43,647 nt of DNA from IMG/VR virus record IMGVR_UViG_3300042269_000036; one strand, written 5' to 3'. Below the pieces are notes generated by a model, which was given only the letters and a program-made list of their open reading frames with translations, made no database searches and had not been told where the DNA came from. The stretch comes from a virus. Positions 4,041 to 41,448 of this stretch are shown in pieces (position 1 is the stretch's first letter; each line of letters starts with the position of its first letter). Position numbers and translations under genes: made by a program.

Positions 4041-4655
4041 CTATCCGTTAACGACCTCGCCGCCGAGTTCCACGCGACGGGCCGCTGCGATTTCTTTAAG
4101 CTTTTCCGCTCCCGCCTTCGGCATGGCCTTGAGCCACGCTGCGCGGTTTTTTAAGATCCCGTCCACGTCAGAGGGGGTGAAAGCTCCGTCAAGTTCAGTG
4201 GATATGGTCTTGTAATGTTCCTTGTGCGGATCATTTCCGTTGCTTCGTTGCTGTGGCGCATTCTTCTGCTGTTTGGCATAGCCGTTTGTGTCAGCATCCT
4301 TGGTGTCGTCGATCAGAAAAAGGCCGTTAAGTGCGTATTTTCTTGCATAGCTGGATGCCGCGCCAGTGATCTGGCTTTCGTCCATACCCTTCTTTGTTTC
4401 GGCTTCGCGGGCGTATGCCGTCACTTCGGCGTGACACCCGTCCTGCCCTTCAAATTTGACCGTCGCCTTGACGTAGATGCGCCCGCCGATTTCTTCGATG
4501 ATGTCCGATATGGTCAGGCAAGCGTCGTGCTTTTTAAGCAGCGGCTTTACGGCCTCTAAAATGTCTTCACAGCTTCGGTAGTTGTAACCTCCGAAAGAAT
4601 TTTTTTGATTCTTAGGCGCTTTCAGTTCCGCTTGAATTTTCGCCAGTGCGTTCAT
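4041..4655 (-). CDS. erf: ERF-family single-strand annealing protein
   Basis: N-terminal MNALAKIQAELKAPKNQKNSFGGYNYRSCEDILEAVKPLL and GAASSYARKYALNGLF are typical ERF blocks. Sits next to an exonuclease. Confidence 0.8.
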   Translation of the reverse strand: MNALAKIQAELKAPKNQKNSFGGYNYRSCEDILEAVKPLLKKHDACLTISDIIEEIGGRIYVKATVKFEGQDGCHAEVTAYAREAETKKGMDESQITGAASSYARKYALNGLFLIDDTKDADTNGYAKQQKNAPQQRSNGNDPHKEHYKTISTELDGAFTPSDVDGILKNRAAWLKAMPKAGAEKLKEIAAARRVELGGEVVNG

Positions 4656-4667
4656 GGTTTCCTCCGA

Positions 4668-5453
4668 TTAAAACGCCGGGTCGAATTTCTTGATTTCCTT
4701 CCAGAGCGATAAAAGCCCCTGAAAAATCCTCCACCCGCGCTGCAATTCTTCTTCGTCGTGCATAATGACCTGCACAAGCCCAGGCTCCGACACGCTCACA
4801 AACACGTTGCCGCAAGCGGCGGTCGGCATGTCCAGCCCGTAACGGTAGGCCGCGAGTTGGATGCTGTGTTCGTCGTAGATAAGCTTCTTCGTGTCGGCCT
4901 CCGTAAACTCCTTGGTCTTTACGTCGAGCACCACGTTTGAAGTTCTGCTGTGCAGGTCCACCTTGCCGCCGTATCCGTAGGGGTGCGCGAAGCTCTTTTC
5001 CGGCTCCCACTCGCTGCCGATGGCAAATATCTGTTCCGTGGCCGCGACAACATAGGGCACATAGTCGGCTTCGATGGCATCCCCGCAAAAGTGCGCTTCG
5101 ATGGCCGCGTGAATGTTGGTGCCGCGCTGTGCTGCTTCAATCGCCTGCTGTTTGGAGTCGGCCATAATACGGGCGGCATAATCGTCCAGGGATTCGCCGT
5201 CGTGCATCGGCAGGGTCAGCGCGGCAAGAAGCACTTGTTTCTGCTTCCACACTTCAAGGGCGGGCTTGGCCATGACCTTCATGACCGTGGTAACACTCGG
5301 CACAAGTCTGTGCTTTCTGGCGTCCCGCATATCTACCGGCCTCATCCCGCCCTTTTTCTTTTCGATTTCGTAACAGGCCGCGCCGTCCGGTCGGTACCAA
5401 TGTCCACCCTGGCTGGCGATGCCGGTCGTGATTTTCGCTTCGACTCCGTTCAT
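4668..5453 (-). CDS. PD-(D/E)XK (Cas4/RecB-like) exonuclease
   Basis: GGKVDLH...VVLDVKTK (D...D/E-x-K) and QLAAYRYG. ATG 5453 with GGAGG RBS; the 5540 start is rejected. Confidence 0.7.
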   Translation of the reverse strand: MNGVEAKITTGIASQGGHWYRPDGAACYEIEKKKGGMRPVDMRDARKHRLVPSVTTVMKVMAKPALEVWKQKQVLLAALTLPMHDGESLDDYAARIMADSKQQAIEAAQRGTNIHAAIEAHFCGDAIEADYVPYVVAATEQIFAIGSEWEPEKSFAHPYGYGGKVDLHSRTSNVVLDVKTKEFTEADTKKLIYDEHSIQLAAYRYGLDMPTAACGNVFVSVSEPGLVQVIMHDEEELQRGWRIFQGLLSLWKEIKKFDPAF

Positions 5454-5630: not shown

Positions 5631-5894
5631 CTATTTGCTGACTGCTTTCTCAAGACTCTCAACCCGCAACTTGAGACGGCTTAGTTCTTGTGCGCGTTCT
5701 TCCGGCAACCTTTCTTCAAGTTCCGCGATAGCACACTCAAAGGACTTATGCCCGACTGAATAAACCCCGTCTGCCGAGACTGAATACATGCTTGTGATGC
5801 TACCGTCAGACCGCGTGAAGAAAGATTCTTCCGCCCCGCAGTTTTTCGTCAGGCTCAACTCCATAACCTTTTCTATGGCTTGTCTGGTTTCCAT
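5631..5894 (-). CDS. Hypothetical protein with C-terminal coiled coil (87 aa)
   Basis: ATG 5894 preceded by GGAGGAG. Confidence 0.55.
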   Translation of the reverse strand: METRQAIEKVMELSLTKNCGAEESFFTRSDGSITSMYSVSADGVYSVGHKSFECAIAELEERLPEERAQELSRLKLRVESLEKAVSK

Positions 5895-6030
5895 TGTCTC
5901 CTCCGATTCTCGCTGCCTCGTCCGGAAAGTAGCTGGCAAGGCAGCGGTCACATATTCCGTGGGTTTCTCCCTCCTGATTGTCGTCAGTAAACCCCATTAC
6001 CGTTTTGCACCATGCACATCGGCGCGTCAT
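5806..6030 (-). CDS. Small zinc-ribbon protein (74 aa), hidden in the tail of a repeat-derived artefactual ORF
   Basis: ATG 6030 overlaps the TGA of the repeat-protein gene (ATGA). MTRRCAWCKTVMGF...THGICDRCL is a CxxC...HGICxxC pattern. The last 89 nt overlap gene 5631..5894 in another frame. Confidence 0.5.
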   Translation of the reverse strand: MTRRCAWCKTVMGFTDDNQEGETHGICDRCLASYFPDEAARIGGDNGNQTSHRKGYGVEPDEKLRGGRIFLHAV

Positions 6031-6719
6031 CGGTACAACTCCATGAACCTCAGCCGCTTGGCTACCATGACCGTTAGACGGTCGTTTTGTGAGTCCCAAG
6101 CAGCGTCCCGAGCAGCGGCCCAAGCAGCGTCCCGAGCAGCGGCCCGAGCAGCGTCCCGAGCAGCGGCCCGAGCAGCGTCCCGAGCAGCGGCCCCAGCAGC
6201 GGCCCAAGCAGCGTCCCGAGCAGCGGCCCGAGCAGCGTCCCGAGCAGCGGCCCAAGCAGCGGCCCGAGCAGCGGCCCAAGCAGCGGCCCGAGCAGCGGCC
6301 CAAGCAGCGGCCCGAGCAGCGGCCCAAGCAGCGGCCCCAGCAGCGTCCCGAATAGAATCATCGCCCGTTGCGAGGTAATCTTTTACAACCTGAGGAGCAT
6401 CCCATAAGTGGATAACGTCAAGTGCGCAGCTGCGAGCAAAGGTGCGTAAAATGTCGTCGCAATCTACACGCGCAAGATACGTGCGCTCGGTCGCACAGGA
6501 CTTGTCGCTGCCGTGCAGAATCTGGCCGCCAAGCTCTACCCGATAAAGAATGCTGCCGCTGGCATACATAAGCGCATCAATAAGCCGCTTGCTGGCATGC
6601 AATCCGTTCCCGCACAGTTCAAGTTCGCCCTCTACGGTGTGCGTCTTGCCGCACTGGACAGGGCGACCGTCGCCGTACCCGAGGGTTTCGTTTTCGTCGC
6701 AAAACCACCAACCATACAT
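6027..6719 (-). CDS. Protein with globular N-domain plus about 21 tandem AA(R/W)(A/D) tetrapeptide repeats (230 aa)
   Basis: ATG 6719 with AGGAGGG 5 nt upstream. N-domain MYGWWFCDENETLGYGDGRPV...LCGNGLHAS...RVEL; C-terminal AAWAAARAAAWAAARDAARAAARDAAW. Confidence 0.7.
   Translation of the reverse strand: MYGWWFCDENETLGYGDGRPVQCGKTHTVEGELELCGNGLHASKRLIDALMYASGSILYRVELGGQILHGSDKSCATERTYLARVDCDDILRTFARSCALDVIHLWDAPQVVKDYLATGDDSIRDAAGAAAWAAARAAAWAAARAAAWAAARAAAWAAARDAARAAARDAAWAAAGAAARDAARAAARDAARAAARDAAWAAARDAAWDSQNDRLTVMVAKRLRFMELYR
6094..6350. repeat. 12-bp GC-rich tandem repeat, about 21 units (plus-strand unit gcagcg[g/t]ccc[a/g]a)
   Basis: Direct reading; stop-free in several frames of both strands. 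Confidence 0.9.
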
Positions 6720-6733
6720 GTTCCCTCCTGTGT

Positions 6734-6910
6734 TCATCGGCATGACTCCATCATCTGCTGTGCATGCCGGGCTTCCAGCTGCGCGATGCGGTCCTCTCGC
6801 TCCATGCACTCCAGCAACCCCCACACAACTACGACGTAGAGGAACAAGATGCCAGCAAGGTAGCCACAGTTTTGTATAAACCACTTAACAGCACGATTCT
6901 TTGTTTCCAT
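6734..6910 (-). CDS. Small single-pass membrane protein (58 aa, below the ORF-track cutoff)
   Basis: Hand translation METKNRAVKWFIQNCGYLAGILFLYVVVVWGLLECMEREDRIAQLEARHAQQMMESCR. The stop lies 15 nt before the next ATG; overlaps the 3' end of 6885..7070 by 26 nt. Confidence 0.5.
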   Translation of the reverse strand: METKNRAVKWFIQNCGYLAGILFLYVVVVWGLLECMEREDRIAQLEARHAQQMMESCR

Positions 6911-7070
6911 TGCGCCCCCTTTTCAGCCGCCGCAGTTCCTGCGAGACAAACGTTTGCATAGCGTTGTCGGTCAGCTCACCGATGCGTATATGTTCGCCGC
7001 GCCGCCGTTTAGCAACGATGAGCTCCAAAAGATCGTTATAGGTTTTTTCCGAAACTCTTATATTTTTCAT
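6885..7070 (-). CDS. First early gene: small RHH/Arc-like DNA-binding candidate (61 aa)
   Basis: MKNIRVSEKTYNDLLELIV has a beta-strand then helix pattern. It is the first ORF downstream of the predicted early promoter/operator. Confidence 0.5.
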   Translation of the reverse strand: MKNIRVSEKTYNDLLELIVAKRRRGEHIRIGELTDNAMQTFVSQELRRLKRGRNGNKESCC

Positions 7071-7216
7071 GTTGGTACCTCGTTAAAGTTAAAGTGTTTC
7101 TCCGATTCGACGGGTCGCGGGCTCTGGCGCATTCGTCCGTTGCGCGGGACCGTCACAGCCCTTGCGGGCCTCGGCTCTATTCGGTTTTCAAAGATCGTTC
7201 GGCGTTGTTGATTTCA

Positions 7217-7244
7217 ACTATACGCCTTTTTCGCAAAACTGCAA
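7217..7244 (-). promoter_or_regulatory. Predicted early promoter: TTGCAG-N16-TATAGT
   Basis: -35 at 7244..7239 and -10 at 7222..7217 on the minus strand, about 145 nt upstream of ATG 7070. Confidence 0.5.
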
Positions 7245-7267
7245 GAAAAAATTGCACGTTTGCGAAA
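7229..7267. promoter_or_regulatory. 39-bp imperfect palindrome (operator candidate) overlapping the early -35
   Basis: TTTCGCAAAACTGCAA-gaaaaaa-TTGCACGTTTGCGAAA; the arms match 14/16. Confidence 0.6.
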
Positions 7268-7362
7268 TAAATATATGAAAAAATAGAAAGGTGTTGCAAA
7301 ACAGTGACTTGCGTTGTGGGATGTGAGTGCCTGGAGGTAAGAATGGTGGGAGAGGAGGTGTA

Positions 7363-39201: not shown

Positions 39202-41448
39202 TTATGCAATAAATGACATTTGCTCTGCGGTGTTGGTGTCGGCCTCAACGAGGTTTTTAACGGCCTGACTGAAATAACTGTCTTTCAATTCAACCCCGAC
39301 GAATTTTCTACCCATTTTCAATGACTGGTAGCCTTCTGACCCGATCCCGGCAAATGGCGAGAAAACCGTGTCGCCCTCATTGGTCCACAGTTGCAAGGAC
39401 CGTTCAATAACGTCGAGTTGCAACGGGCAAATGTGCCGTTCGTCTTTATCGTCGCGAGCGGAAGTACGCTGCAATGTGTTGGACGGGTTAATGTCCATCC
39501 AGACCGGGGATGCGTACCTTTGCCACACGTCGATTGACAAATTTTTCGTTTGTTTAAACGTCGACTGATCGCCCGCGAAATACTTAAGTTCACCGCACAC
39601 AGGTTCTGGGTTTTCCCCCGGTTTGCGCATGACCACCAGATAATCTGGTATGCCCTGACGCGACATGCAACTATCTTTTTTAAGTTGTTTGTGGAGTAAT
39701 CCAAGTGCCTTTGTGCGTTGCATGGCCGTTACCGGGTCCTTCCAAATAACCACTTCGCTGTGATATATCCAGCCAGCGTCCTGAAATGTTTTGATGAGTT
39801 GCCCGCGAAAATCCTTAATGCCGATAACCCCGTCGCGCGCTTTACTGGTCGGAAGATTCATACAATGAAACGCGCAGAGCCTCCCCGGCTTAGTAATACG
39901 CAACAGTTCCGGCACCAAGAAACTGAAATGGTCAGCAAATTCCTGATCCGTTTTACAGTTCCCCATGTCGCGGTCGCTGGCCGAGTAGGTATAAAGCGAT
40001 GCGAACGGCGGGGAAAAGATCGAAAAATGCACGCTGTCGTCGGGGATTTCCCGCGTTACGTCAACGCAATCGCCATGGTATAAGGTCCAATTTTCGGATG
40101 ATTCAACCCCACGCGCATAGTCAACAGTCTGACGCGTTGTGCCGTGGATCTCATCGGTGTTAATACCCGCCATATATTTCACCATTTCTGACGCCATCAA
40201 CTCCGCGTCAGCCTCTTTGCGTTCAATGTTTTTCACAACCGCCCCTTCCGTTTCTGCGGTCACGACATGGACTGTGACCTTGTTTTTCTGCCCGAACCGC
40301 CAGCATCGCCTAACCGCCTGATAAAATTGCTCATAGGAATCGGACAGTCCGAGAAAAATCATAGTGTCGCAATGTTGCCAATTCATGCCAAACCCGGCGA
40401 TGCTTGGTTTGGTGACAAGCGTTTTAACACTGCCATCCGAAAAGCCGAGCATGGCAGATTCTTTGTGCTCGTTTTTATCAGATCCTTTCACTTCTACCGC
40501 GCCGTCAATTAAATGTTTTGCTGCGGCAGATTCATCGTTGAGGTTGCACCATACTAGGCACGGTCCATTCGTGTTGTTGGCAATTTCTGCTGCGAGCTTG
40601 GCGCGTTTGCCCACAGTGGCTTTGCGCTCTTGCTGTCGCTCCTGCAACGTAAGCGCCTCGACCGGGAACAAAAACCCATCGGGAGCCTCATTCTTTTTGA
40701 CAACATGGTGTTTAATCTCAAGCGGCGGCAAAATAAATCCTCCGTCGTCATACCCAAGATCGGACGGTTTGCGAATCATGACTGCCCAGGACGCCACCCA
40801 TCGCCAGAAATCATTTTGAGCATGCCCTTTGATTCGCCATTTCTGCGTTTCTCCACCGTCATGCACAAAAAACATGCTTAACATTTCCACACGGCTCATC
40901 ACACCCAAAAACTCTGCATGGTTGCCTAGTTCCATGTGATCGTTCGGGGCGGGCGTTGCGGTACACGCCAGACGAAAGGCCGTGTTTTTGAACGCATCTA
41001 TAATCTCATTTCTTATTTTCCCGGTATAGCTCTTTAAAATTGATGATTCATCAAGGACGACACCAGCAAAATGGTCTGCATTAAATTTGCCAAGCATTTC
41101 ATAATTGGTTATTGTGATTCCTGATGAAACTTGTTCTTGGCTGCGGCAATACTTCACGTCAATGCCAAACTTCGCGCCCTCCCTAACGGTTTGCATTGAC
41201 ACGGCCAGCGGAGCCAGGATTAACACATCGCCGCCCGTATACTCATGAACATGCTTCCCCCACTCTAGCTGTATGGCTGTTTTGCCCATTCCACAATCGG
41301 CAAACAGCGCTGCCCTCCCGCGCTTTAACGCCCAACGAACAATGTCTTTCTGGAATTCGAACAGTGCCGGGTTTATTCCAACGTCTGCGCGTATTCCAGT
41401 TGCCGCGTCCGCCACGGCTTTTTTCTGCAAAAAGTCCTCGTATCGCAT
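39202..41448 (-). CDS. Fusion of SNF2/DEAD-type helicase and beta-class N6A/N4C DNA methyltransferase (748 aa)
   Basis: DCGMGKT (Walker A), VVLDESS (DExx), helicase C block QAVRRCWRFGQ. Then FSPPFASLY (motif IV) precedes FSPFAGIGSEG (motif I). Confidence 0.85.
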   Translation of the reverse strand: MRYEDFLQKKAVADAATGIRADVGINPALFEFQKDIVRWALKRGRAALFADCGMGKTAIQLEWGKHVHEYTGGDVLILAPLAVSMQTVREGAKFGIDVKYCRSQEQVSSGITITNYEMLGKFNADHFAGVVLDESSILKSYTGKIRNEIIDAFKNTAFRLACTATPAPNDHMELGNHAEFLGVMSRVEMLSMFFVHDGGETQKWRIKGHAQNDFWRWVASWAVMIRKPSDLGYDDGGFILPPLEIKHHVVKKNEAPDGFLFPVEALTLQERQQERKATVGKRAKLAAEIANNTNGPCLVWCNLNDESAAAKHLIDGAVEVKGSDKNEHKESAMLGFSDGSVKTLVTKPSIAGFGMNWQHCDTMIFLGLSDSYEQFYQAVRRCWRFGQKNKVTVHVVTAETEGAVVKNIERKEADAELMASEMVKYMAGINTDEIHGTTRQTVDYARGVESSENWTLYHGDCVDVTREIPDDSVHFSIFSPPFASLYTYSASDRDMGNCKTDQEFADHFSFLVPELLRITKPGRLCAFHCMNLPTSKARDGVIGIKDFRGQLIKTFQDAGWIYHSEVVIWKDPVTAMQRTKALGLLHKQLKKDSCMSRQGIPDYLVVMRKPGENPEPVCGELKYFAGDQSTFKQTKNLSIDVWQRYASPVWMDINPSNTLQRTSARDDKDERHICPLQLDVIERSLQLWTNEGDTVFSPFAGIGSEGYQSLKMGRKFVGVELKDSYFSQAVKNLVEADTNTAEQMSFIA

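What the first reader, a model, noticed from the sequence alone, without database searches (positions are those of the whole stretch)
6027..6719. Early protein ending in about 21 tandem AA(R/W)(A/D) tetrapeptides encoded by a 12-bp DNA repeat
Region 6094..6350 is a near-perfect 12-bp tandem repeat. In the gene frame it reads AAWAAARAAAWAAARDAARAAARDAAW... for about 85 residues, attached to a Cys/Gly-containing globular N-domain (MYGWWFCDENETLGYGDGRPV...LCGNGLHAS...RVELGG). W and R alternate with an 8-residue period on an all-Ala background, which predicts one long amphipathic helix with aromatic and basic stripes. The repeat is stop-free in several frames of both strands, and so spawns several artefactual ORFs. 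It should be prone to slippage or unequal recombination, that is, length polymorphism. It is the third gene of the early operon, a typical place for host-takeover or anti-defence proteins. I cannot assign a function.
Basis: partly seen in the sequence, partly recalled or inferred. Interest (0 to 1): 0.6.

Follow-up and report, generated by a model that had tools for sequence, protein, structure and literature searches.

The report
Phage early protein with hypervariable alanine repeats
This is a real early phage gene from a very large, unstudied family: a conserved head domain, probably related to part of the T4 RIIB anti-exclusion protein, is joined to a fast-changing alanine-rich repeat that likely forms a helical hairpin for binding host proteins, but its function is untested.

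Summary
The gene at 6027..6719 (minus strand, 230 aa) ends in 21 in-frame 12-bp units. These differ at only two bases, giving A-A-[W/R/G]-[A/D].

It is not a one-off. The head is Pfam DUF7666, and about 2,850 clusters (50% identity) of phage and prophage proteins share the head plus linker. All that carry a name are called hypothetical. This scan has already met the family several times on other DNA.

- **Structure:** AlphaFold2 (pLDDT 94) predicts a beta head, a short helical adaptor and a long antiparallel helical hairpin, not one long helix. Neither the whole model nor the head resembles any solved structure.
- **Array evolution:** within each array the synonymous sites are uniform, while different phages use different Ala codons. 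That is concerted evolution, with diversity kept at two replacement sites. A second allele is 99.5% identical in its unique coding sequence but has 6 units instead of 21.
- **Relatives:** the head probably shares a fold and a C-x2-G-[L/F]-H motif with the C-terminal domain of T4 RIIB. Canonical DUF7666 proteins of cultured phages carry other short repeats with the same two-residue variability.

Best reading: an early host-interference or counter-defence binder with a rapidly evolving surface. The function remains untested.

The parts
6027..6719 (-). Whole gene, 230 aa plus stop (P0001)
   Evidence: ORF and translation. The frame and the start are conserved in homologues.
6724..6729 (-). Shine-Dalgarno AGGAGG, 4 nt before the ATG
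   Evidence: Read directly from the sequence.
6462..6719 (-). Head domain, aa 1-86: beta-rich DUF7666 with invariant R19, G39, H41 and near-invariant W4, F6, D17, C36, S43 (motif C-x2-G-L-H-A-S)
   Evidence: Pfam PF24703, E 2.8e-9, 37.8 bits against a cut-off of 27. Conservation. AF2 pLDDT 97. Foldseek matches to viral DUF7666 and RIIB models. hhalign to RIIB.
6345..6461 (-). Helical adaptor, aa 87-125 (family consensus LRxFARxCALDVIHLWDAPxVVxxYLxTGDESLR)
   Evidence: Helices 88-101 and 110-118 in the model. Near-invariant residues L91 to G119. In a relative, a sub-threshold Imm5_like match covers this part.
6093..6344 (-). Array of 21 units of 12 bp, encoding A-A-[W/R/G]-[A/D] (aa 126-209)
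   Evidence: TRF. Per-position counts. Predicted to form the two arms of a helical hairpin with a turn near aa 168-170, where pLDDT falls to 73-79.
6027..6092 (-). C-terminal conserved helix, aa 210-230 (SQNDRLTVMV...), plus stop
   Evidence: The family consensus QNxRLxxMV follows the array in most members, including members with almost no array.
5806..6030 (-). Downstream 74-aa ORF with four Cys (CxxC...CxxC); its ATG overlaps the stop of the repeat gene (ATGA)
   Evidence: Translation. The same first 23 nt follow the gene in the allele L031. Not analysed further.

Best explanation
The gene encodes a modular early phage protein. A constant beta-rich head (DUF7666, probably the same fold as the C-terminal domain of T4 RIIB) and a short helical adaptor carry a protruding antiparallel helical hairpin built from A-A-x-x units. 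In each unit the two alanines form the invariant helical framework. The third residue (W/R/G) and the fourth (A/D) probably face outward, though this was not checked on coordinates. Because all units are identical at the DNA level apart from two bases, replication slippage or unequal recombination can lengthen, shorten and reshuffle the array without breaking the frame. I infer that the hairpin is a rapidly evolving binding surface. It would direct the conserved head to a host component early in infection, most likely a defence or abortive-infection protein.

Shown here: the gene, the frame, the family, the repeat anatomy, the concerted-evolution pattern and the length variation.

Predicted: the hairpin fold.

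Inferred: binding, and a role in counter-defence.
For: - **Family size:** more than 2,986 homologues in the word-indexed search, which was capped. About 2,852 clusters at 50% identity match the head plus linker. Members occur in viral contigs and in genome assemblies and MAGs assigned to several bacterial phyla.
- **Selection on the protein, not on a DNA motif:** within arrays of 20 viral-contig loci plus the L031 allele, nt 7 and nt 11 carry 249 of 310 minor-allele counts. The synonymous third positions of the two Ala codons carry 2. Between loci the Ala codons differ (GCC GCC, GCT GCG, GCC GCA and others).
- **The array changes faster than its flanks:** the L031 allele differs at 2 of 441 unique coding nt but has 6 units against 21. 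It also has unit junctions that are absent from the window's array.
- **Structure:** pLDDT 93.9, pTM 0.80, head plus adaptor plus hairpin. Relatives with 1-3 units keep the head, the adaptor and the C-terminal helix, so the array behaves as an extensible insert.
- **Head related to an anti-defence protein:** Foldseek matches six RIIB models at E 1e-3 to 7e-3, with about 100 columns aligned at about 3 A rmsd (given for five of the six). These scores are close to those for bona fide DUF7666 models. hhalign of the family against an RIIB alignment gives E 1e-4 to 2e-4 and probability 44-55%, aligning W, C-x2-G-L-H and S. RIIB counters RexAB and triggers CARD-gasdermin systems (bioRxiv 10.1101/2023.05.28.542683, read).
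- **Same architecture elsewhere:** ES18 gp53 has DUF7666 plus 11 units of TG[DNY][QW]SAATN, and lies between the N-like gene and cIII/kil/erf. Rheinheimera phage Barba18A gp041 has DUF7666 plus about 24 units of NTG[NDFY][RQWL]. In both, the units are DNA-identical apart from two codons.
- **Position:** an early operon upstream of the recombination genes.
Against: - There is no experimental datum on any family member.
- There is no conserved neighbouring gene that might hint at a target.
- The RIIB link is remote. hhalign probabilities are only 17-55%. There is no rIIA partner, and RIIB's own mechanism is unknown.
- The hairpin is a prediction on a self-similar sequence, and confidence drops at the turn. 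I could not inspect the coordinates, so the outward orientation of W/R/D is inferred.
- Unit types are almost randomly ordered along arrays. A purely structural spacer with relaxed constraints would also give this.
- Arrays can be stable. L001 and L002 are identical, and the Barba isolates differ by at most one unit.
- Unit counts come from assemblies that often break at these arrays, and read data could not be consulted.
Confidence: 0.5

Rival explanations
1. It protects the infected cell or lysogen against other phages (superinfection exclusion or defence) rather than countering host defence. The variable hairpin would then recognise proteins of competing phages.
For: Canonical DUF7666 genes sit in moron-like places. 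fEg-Aba01 gp28c lies between repressor genes of the lysogeny module. ES18 gp53 lies between the N-like gene and cIII; from my own knowledge, lambda and P22 carry sieB and ral there. One viral contig has three tandem paralogues (L005), as is common for diversifying recognition genes.
Against: No match to any of the 5,027 PADLOC defence models. In this window the gene lies in the early lytic operon of what looks like a podovirus with no lysogeny genes nearby. The nearest characterised relative of the head, RIIB, acts against defence.
Confidence: 0.15
2. It is an Imm5-type immunity protein that directly neutralises a toxin, for example a toxin of an abortive-infection or toxin-antitoxin module. 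The helical part would be the toxin-binding domain.
For: In one relative (the L021 protein) the adaptor and the first repeats match Pfam Imm5_like at 16.5-19.9 bits, E 1.4e-5 per genome, covering model positions 11-86. From my own knowledge, Imm5 and Imm5_like are all-helical predicted immunity proteins; the source paper (Zhang et al. 2012, PMC3482391) pairs Imm5 with Tox-CdiAC.
Against: The score is below the 25-bit cut-off. None of the 117 family members, including this protein, matches at E <= 0.1. No toxin gene is adjacent, and the neighbours are not conserved. The head domain is not part of Imm5 proteins.
Confidence: 0.12
3. The array is a selectively near-neutral expansion of a slippery sequence. 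Only the head and adaptor matter, and the hairpin is a tolerated spacer of arbitrary length.
For: Array length ranges from about 1 to more than 30 units. Unit order is close to random, and positions 3 and 4 are nearly independent. Some members have a degenerate, non-repetitive helical region instead.
Against: Variation is confined to two replacement sites while synonymous sites stay uniform. The same small alphabet (W/R/G and A/D) recurs in phages whose heads are only 50-60% identical and which use different Ala codons. The same two-residue logic recurs in unrelated repeat types attached to DUF7666.
Confidence: 0.13
4. The two variable bases are written by a diversity-generating retroelement or another targeted mutator.
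For: The two variable sites can take any base without creating a stop codon (NGG, GNC). Across the family all four bases occur at each site. The AGG-using form of the A-A-R-D unit, seen in other loci but not in this window, has adenines only at these two sites.
Against: No Y-x-DD reverse-transcriptase motif in any frame of 150 aa or more. No second copy of the unit anywhere in the 43.6-kb window that could serve as a template. In this array Arg is CGG, and A never occurs at site 7.
Confidence: 0.02
5. Each 4-residue unit (a 6 A rise along the helix) reads one nucleotide of a single-stranded nucleic acid, so the two variable residues form a recognition code as in TAL or PUF repeats.
For: Only circumstantial. 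There are two variable residues per unit, and W, R and D are typical base-contacting residues (my own knowledge). The unit rise is close to the nucleotide spacing of extended single strands (inference).
Against: A 4-residue repeat precesses by 40 degrees per unit on a straight helix. The model shows a hairpin with no obvious groove. The net charge is near neutral. No nucleic-acid-binding family matches.
Confidence: 0.04

Closest known systems
Pfam DUF7666 (PF24703) phage proteins, e.g. Salmonella phage ES18 gp53, Rheinheimera phage Barba18A gp041, Acinetobacter phage fEg-Aba01 gp28c
   Same: The head domain scores over the Pfam cut-off and carries the C-x2-G-[L/F]-H motif. hhalign of the family against fEg-Aba01 gp28c gives probability 96.5%, E 7e-10. 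The architecture is the same: a head followed by DNA-identical short tandem repeats with two variable residues per unit. These genes also sit in early or moron positions.
   Different: This subfamily is divergent (38 bits against 115-127 bits for the canonical members). It has Ser where the canonical motif has a second Cys. It adds a helical adaptor, and its repeat is a 4-residue helical unit rather than a 5- or 9-residue unit. No close relative exists among 50,697 GenBank phage records.
T4 RIIB (protector from prophage-induced early lysis; counters RexAB)
   Same: The C-terminal part of RIIB (T4 residues about 210-280) aligns with the head, sharing W, C-x2-G-L-H and S. Several RIIB models match the head structurally. 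Both are early, non-essential-looking phage genes.
   Different: RIIB has an N-terminal HTH and a middle domain and no repeat array. It works with RIIA, which is absent here. The homology is remote and unproven.
Imm5 / Imm5_like predicted immunity proteins (PF14423, PF21805; Zhang et al. 2012, PMC3482391)
   Same: Alanine-rich, all-helical. One relative matches the first 75 positions of the model at sub-threshold level, across the adaptor and the first repeats.
   Different: No match for this protein or for 117 relatives at E <= 0.1. There is no polymorphic-toxin context, and a DUF7666 head is present.
High-internal-conservation repeats of fungal NOD-like receptors, and TAL-effector repeats
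   Same: Units are near-identical at the DNA level, variation is focused on a few replacement sites, and unit number changes by recombination or slippage.
   Different: Those units are 33-42 residues long and fold as WD40, ANK, TPR or TAL modules. Here the unit is 4 residues of a continuous helix. This is an analogy of evolutionary mode, not homology.

Membership tests
Pfam DUF7666 (PF24703) | HMM score above the gathering cut-off (27 bits) | tested here: met
   37.8 bits, E 2.8e-9, aa 22-92. All 117 aligned relatives also match.
Pfam DUF7666 (PF24703) | Core motif C-x2-G-[L/F]-H in a beta-rich domain of about 95 aa | tested here: met
   C36, G39, L40 and H41 are invariant or nearly so. The AF2 head has pLDDT 97. 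Foldseek matches proteins named DUF7666 at E 8e-7 to 5e-4.
A-A-x-x hairpin subfamily (phrog_18326-like) | Head, then LRxFARxCALDVIHLWDAP adaptor, then tetrapeptide array, then QNxRLxxMV helix | tested here: met
   Consensus of alignment A1. phrog_18326 E 2.1e-11 over aa 87-220.
T4 RIIB family (PF26926 in the precomputed table) | Full-length architecture (N-terminal HTH, middle domain, C-terminal domain) | tested here: not met
   Only the last 70-100 residues or so of RIIB align. This protein has no HTH.
T4 RIIB family (PF26926 in the precomputed table) | Homology of the head to the RIIB C-terminal domain | tested here: inconclusive
   hhalign E 2.4e-4 with probability 44%, and E 1.2e-4 with probability 55%. 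Foldseek E 1e-3 to 7e-3 to six RIIB models.
T4 RIIB family (PF26926 in the precomputed table) | Partner gene rIIA | tested here: not met
   tblastn of T4 rIIA against the window and the loci held at that point found only noise, E > 2.
T4 RIIB family (PF26926 in the precomputed table) | Relief of RexAB exclusion | not testable with these tools
   Needs a plaque assay.
Imm5_like (PF21805) | HMM score above the cut-off (25 bits) | tested here: not met
   No hit for P0001 and 0 of 117 relatives at E <= 0.1. The best relative reaches 16.5-19.9 bits.
Imm5_like (PF21805) | Encoded next to a polymorphic toxin or in a poly-immunity locus | tested here: not met
   Phage early operon here. The neighbours in 21 related loci (20 viral contigs plus L031) share no gene besides the family itself.
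DGR variable protein | Reverse transcriptase and a template repeat in the same element | tested here: not met
   No Y-x-DD motif in long frames, and no second copy of the unit.
ADP-ribosyltransferase (Arr-like), as annotated for fEg-Aba01 gp28c | Sequence or fold similarity to solved ADP-ribosyltransferases | tested here: not met
   Foldseek of the whole model and of the head against the PDB: best E 0.5, no ADP-ribosyltransferase among the top 50. Profile and single-sequence searches of the PDB: none.
Known anti-phage defence proteins (PADLOC 2.0) | Match to any defence-system model | tested here: not met
   No match at E <= 0.01.

The most novel reading that the evidence does not exclude
A constant RIIB-like effector head would be aimed at changing host defence proteins by a repeat surface that is rewritten through unit shuffling at two residues per unit. 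This would be a phage counterpart of TAL-effector or fungal NLR repeat evolution, and it could finally show what the RIIB C-terminal domain does.
Probability: 0.3. Interest if true: 0.85.

Novelty: new member of a known kind. Interest (0 to 1): 0.5.

Why it matters
The family is very large: thousands of 50%-identity clusters in phages and prophages across several bacterial phyla. It sits in early or moron positions and shows one of the clearest concerted-evolution-plus-diversification signatures in phage genes. Yet I found no paper on it: DUF7666 gives zero hits in 8.4 million full texts.

If the head really is the RIIB C-terminal fold, these proteins offer small, tractable models for a 70-year-old open question, namely what rII does. 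If the arrays are binding surfaces, they would be a new, very compact scaffold for evolvable recognition. This particular gene adds nothing beyond one more clean example.

Tried and rejected
- **Solved structures:** Foldseek of the whole model and of the head alone gave nothing better than E 0.5. Profile and sequence searches of the PDB gave nothing.
- **ADP-ribosyltransferase reading:** this comes from the depositors' annotation of fEg-Aba01 gp28c and from an earlier scan note. I could not reproduce it.
- **Imm5_like membership:** sub-threshold only. I could not obtain an Imm5_like alignment for a profile-profile test.
- **DGR:** no reverse transcriptase and no template repeat.
- **Iteron or DNA-motif reading:** rejected, because the Ala codons differ between phages while the peptide is kept.
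- **Glycine at the predicted hairpin turn:** no enrichment.
- **Conserved neighbours across 21 related loci:** none.
- **rIIA partner:** none.
- **Defence-model match:** none.
- **Close relatives in GenBank phages:** none. Only canonical DUF7666 proteins at E about 0.3.
- **Nearest held virus record (G001):** lacks the gene. The window's own assembly is not held.
- **Literature:** the ES18 genome paper could not be retrieved. Searches for DUF7666 and for tetrapeptide repeats in phage gave nothing.
- **Host of the window's phage:** not identified. The gene I tried is a widespread helicase/methylase.

Full report
**1. What is there**

The minus strand carries an ORF from ATG 6719 to the stop at 6027, giving 230 aa. 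An AGGAGG lies four bases upstream. The longer GTG-initiated version listed mechanically (6884) is not supported: homologues start where the ATG version does, with W4 and F6 conserved.

Tandem Repeats Finder reports one 12-bp array at 6095-6351, with 21.4 copies and score 402. In the coding register it consists of 21 units, GCTGCT[T/C/G]GGG[C/A]C, covering aa 126-209. Ten of the 12 positions are invariant, including all four synonymous third positions. The two variable bases are both replacement sites and give W/R/G and A/D. The ORFs in other frames across the repeat have no support and are by-products of the repeat. The strict W/R alternation applies only to the first eight units.

**2. It is one member of a very large family**

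- The N-terminal 90 residues match Pfam DUF7666 above the cut-off. The rest matches phrog_18326, of unknown function.
- A word-indexed search returned more than 2,986 significant homologues among 8,000 scored candidates.
- An exhaustive HMMER scan with only the head and adaptor (120 aa) found 2,852 clusters at 50% identity with E <= 1e-3, and 1,539 with E <= 1e-10.
- Every named member is 'hypothetical protein'.
- Relatives occur in IMG/VR viral contigs. They also occur in genomes or MAGs labelled Novosphingobium, Asaia, Rhodanobacteraceae, Betaproteobacteria, Planctomycetes, Gemmatimonadota and others.
- No close relative is present in 50,697 GenBank phage records.
- The full-text library has no paper that mentions DUF7666.
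- This scan has met the same family on other DNA several times. I treated those notes as leads and re-tested what I use below.

**3. Anatomy**

The family alignment shows four parts:
- a conserved head, with invariant R19, G39 and H41, and near-invariant W4, F6, D17, C36 and S43;
- a conserved helical adaptor ending in ...YLxTGDESLR;
- the tetrapeptide array;
- a conserved C-terminal QNxRLxxMV helix.

AlphaFold2 with 117 sequences gives pLDDT 93.9 and pTM 0.80. The model has beta strands to residue 86, helices 88-101 and 110-118, then two long helices (121-167 and 171-228) joined by a three-residue turn. Confidence drops to 73-79 at the turn. The head and adaptor alone give pLDDT 97.1.

That arrangement places the conserved C-terminal helix near the core.

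Relatives with only one to three units keep the head, the adaptor and the C-terminal helix. Others have a non-repetitive helical segment in the same place. The array thus behaves as an extensible insert in a pre-existing hairpin.

Composition is uniform along arrays. There is no glycine enrichment at the centre. Residues 3 and 4 are almost independent, and W/R alternation is only 1.2 times expectation.

**4. How the array evolves**

I examined the window plus 20 IMG/VR viral-contig loci and the L031 allele.
- Within each array, variation is concentrated at nt 7 and nt 11 (142 and 107 of 310 minor-allele counts). The third positions of the two Ala codons vary twice in total.
- Between loci the Ala codons differ freely, for example GCC GCC, GCT GCG, GCC GCA and GCA GCT.
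- This combination is the signature of concerted evolution of the units, with diversity retained at two replacement sites. It also rules out a DNA-level motif such as iterons.

A metagenomic allele (P0002, L031) differs from the window gene at only 2 of 441 unique coding bases. It has 6 units instead of 21, and it has unit junctions (G-G, R-R) that do not occur in the window's array. It is therefore a distinct allele rather than a simple assembly collapse of this one. The array changes far faster than its flanks.

This is not a fast contingency switch, however. L001 and L002, from two samples, have identical arrays. In the related DUF7666-pentapeptide gene of 115 Rheinheimera phage isolates, only three of the 60 listed records differ, each by one unit.

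One caveat applies. Two of nine genome contigs end inside or at the array. Short-read assemblies evidently struggle here, and unit counts, including the 21 of this window, need read-level confirmation.

A DGR is excluded as the source of variation. No reverse-transcriptase motif and no second copy of the unit exist in the window.

**5. What the head resembles**

Nothing in the PDB resembles the whole model or the head (best E 0.5). No PDB sequence matches the profiles.

Against predicted viral structures, the head matches several groups:
- proteins named DUF7666 from phages and giant viruses (E 8e-7 to 5e-4);
- a 'pentapeptide' protein of a Rheinheimera phage;
- giant-virus proteins named ankyrin-repeat or DUF4116;
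- six RIIB proteins of T4-like phages (E 1e-3 to 7e-3, about 100 aligned columns at about 3 A for five of them). These scores are close to those of the bona fide DUF7666 hits.

Profile comparisons agree with the RIIB link:
- the family against T4 rIIB alone gives E 1.4e-3;
- the family against a 46-sequence RIIB alignment gives E 2.4e-4 and probability 44%;
- a trimmed head alignment with canonical DUF7666 sequences added gives E 1.2e-4 and probability 55%.

In each case T4 residues about 210-280 align, with W214, C252, G255, L256 and H257 matched to W4, C36, G39, L40 and H41. I rate the homology of the head with the RIIB C-terminal domain as probable, about two in three, and not proven.

RIIB is needed to overcome RexAB, by an unknown mechanism, and it triggers CARD-gasdermin systems (bioRxiv 10.1101/2023.05.28.542683). 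No rIIA homologue accompanies the gene here.

The 'ADP-ribosyltransferase' label on fEg-Aba01 gp28c could not be reproduced.

The Imm5_like resemblance proposed earlier is real but sub-threshold, and is limited to the adaptor and first repeats of one relative.

**6. The same design with other repeats**

Canonical DUF7666 proteins of cultured phages carry different short repeats that follow the same rule.
- ES18 gp53 has the head at aa 5-98 (E 5e-34), then 11 units of 27 bp encoding TG[D/N/Y][Q/W]SAATN.
- Barba18A gp041 has the head, then about 24 identical 15-bp units encoding NTG[N/D/F/Y][R/Q/W/L].
- In both, the variation is confined to two adjacent codons.
- ES18 gp53 lies between the N-like antiterminator and cIII/kil/erf in the PL operon. 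fEg-Aba01 gp28c lies among the repressor genes.

The recurring combination of a constant head with a repeat surface carrying two variable residues per unit is the strongest argument that the arrays are evolving binding surfaces rather than neutral filler.

**7. Most likely mechanism**

My best reading is an early host-interference protein, most likely for counter-defence. The A-A-x-x hairpin would be a quickly rewritable binding surface that brings the conserved head to a host target (confidence 0.5).

What is shown, predicted and inferred is kept apart in the structured fields. The rivals are: superinfection exclusion or defence (0.15), a neutral spacer (0.13), an Imm5-type toxin neutraliser (0.12), a nucleic-acid code (0.04) and a DGR or other mutator (0.02).

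**8. Verdict**

This is a real, well-formed member of a catalogued but uncharacterised family. It was already seen repeatedly in this scan and is not unusual within that family. Interest lies in the family, not in this copy.

Noticed in passing
window 5806-6030 (-): A 74-aa ORF with two CxxC pairs starts with an ATG that overlaps the stop of the repeat gene (ATGA). Its tail overlaps the next gene, which probably starts at the METRQ... methionine near 5894. The same first 23 nt follow the gene in the allele L031.
   Followed up: partly
L005 4263-7361 (+): One viral contig carries three paralogues of the family within 3.1 kb, the last two adjacent (4263-5075, 5941-6633, 6630-7361). Their arrays differ, and some units contain K, E, S or L.
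   Followed up: no
L043 (Asaia sp. HN128) and L044 (Phycisphaerae MAG): The contigs end inside or exactly at the tetrapeptide array. Short-read assemblies therefore break at these repeats, and unit counts in assemblies are unreliable.
   Followed up: partly
L037 2489-3337 (+), Salmonella phage ES18 gp53: DUF7666 head plus 11 near-identical 27-bp units in which only two codons vary. The C-terminal part matches NCBIfam 'protein YdhT' at 49.8 bits, well below the cut-off.
   Followed up: partly
L036 1471-2448 (+), Rheinheimera phage Barba18A gp041: DUF7666 head fused to Pentapeptide_2 repeats, with about 24 identical 15-bp units. Among 115 isolates, three of the 60 listed differ, each by one unit. 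Each genome holds 7-11 places matching this region.
   Followed up: partly
P0030, P0076, P0057 (homologues): Fusions exist. Two members have an N-terminal A1S_2505-family phage non-structural domain (NCBIfam NF049995, E 2e-38 for P0030; phrog_2072 for both). One has a C-terminal extension of about 180 aa with a faint resemblance to the DNA polymerase III beta clamp (E 0.003).
   Followed up: no
L034 2411-2998 (+), Acinetobacter phage fEg-Aba01 gp28c: A canonical DUF7666 protein is annotated by its depositors as a 'putative ADP-ribosyltransferase' (Arr-like). None of the sequence or fold searches here supports this.
   Followed up: partly
window 39202-41448 (-): This 748-aa protein is 60% identical to a gene of Synechococcus phage S-CBS3 annotated as a DNA methylase. 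In other matching phages the region is annotated as a helicase or a methylase.
   Followed up: no
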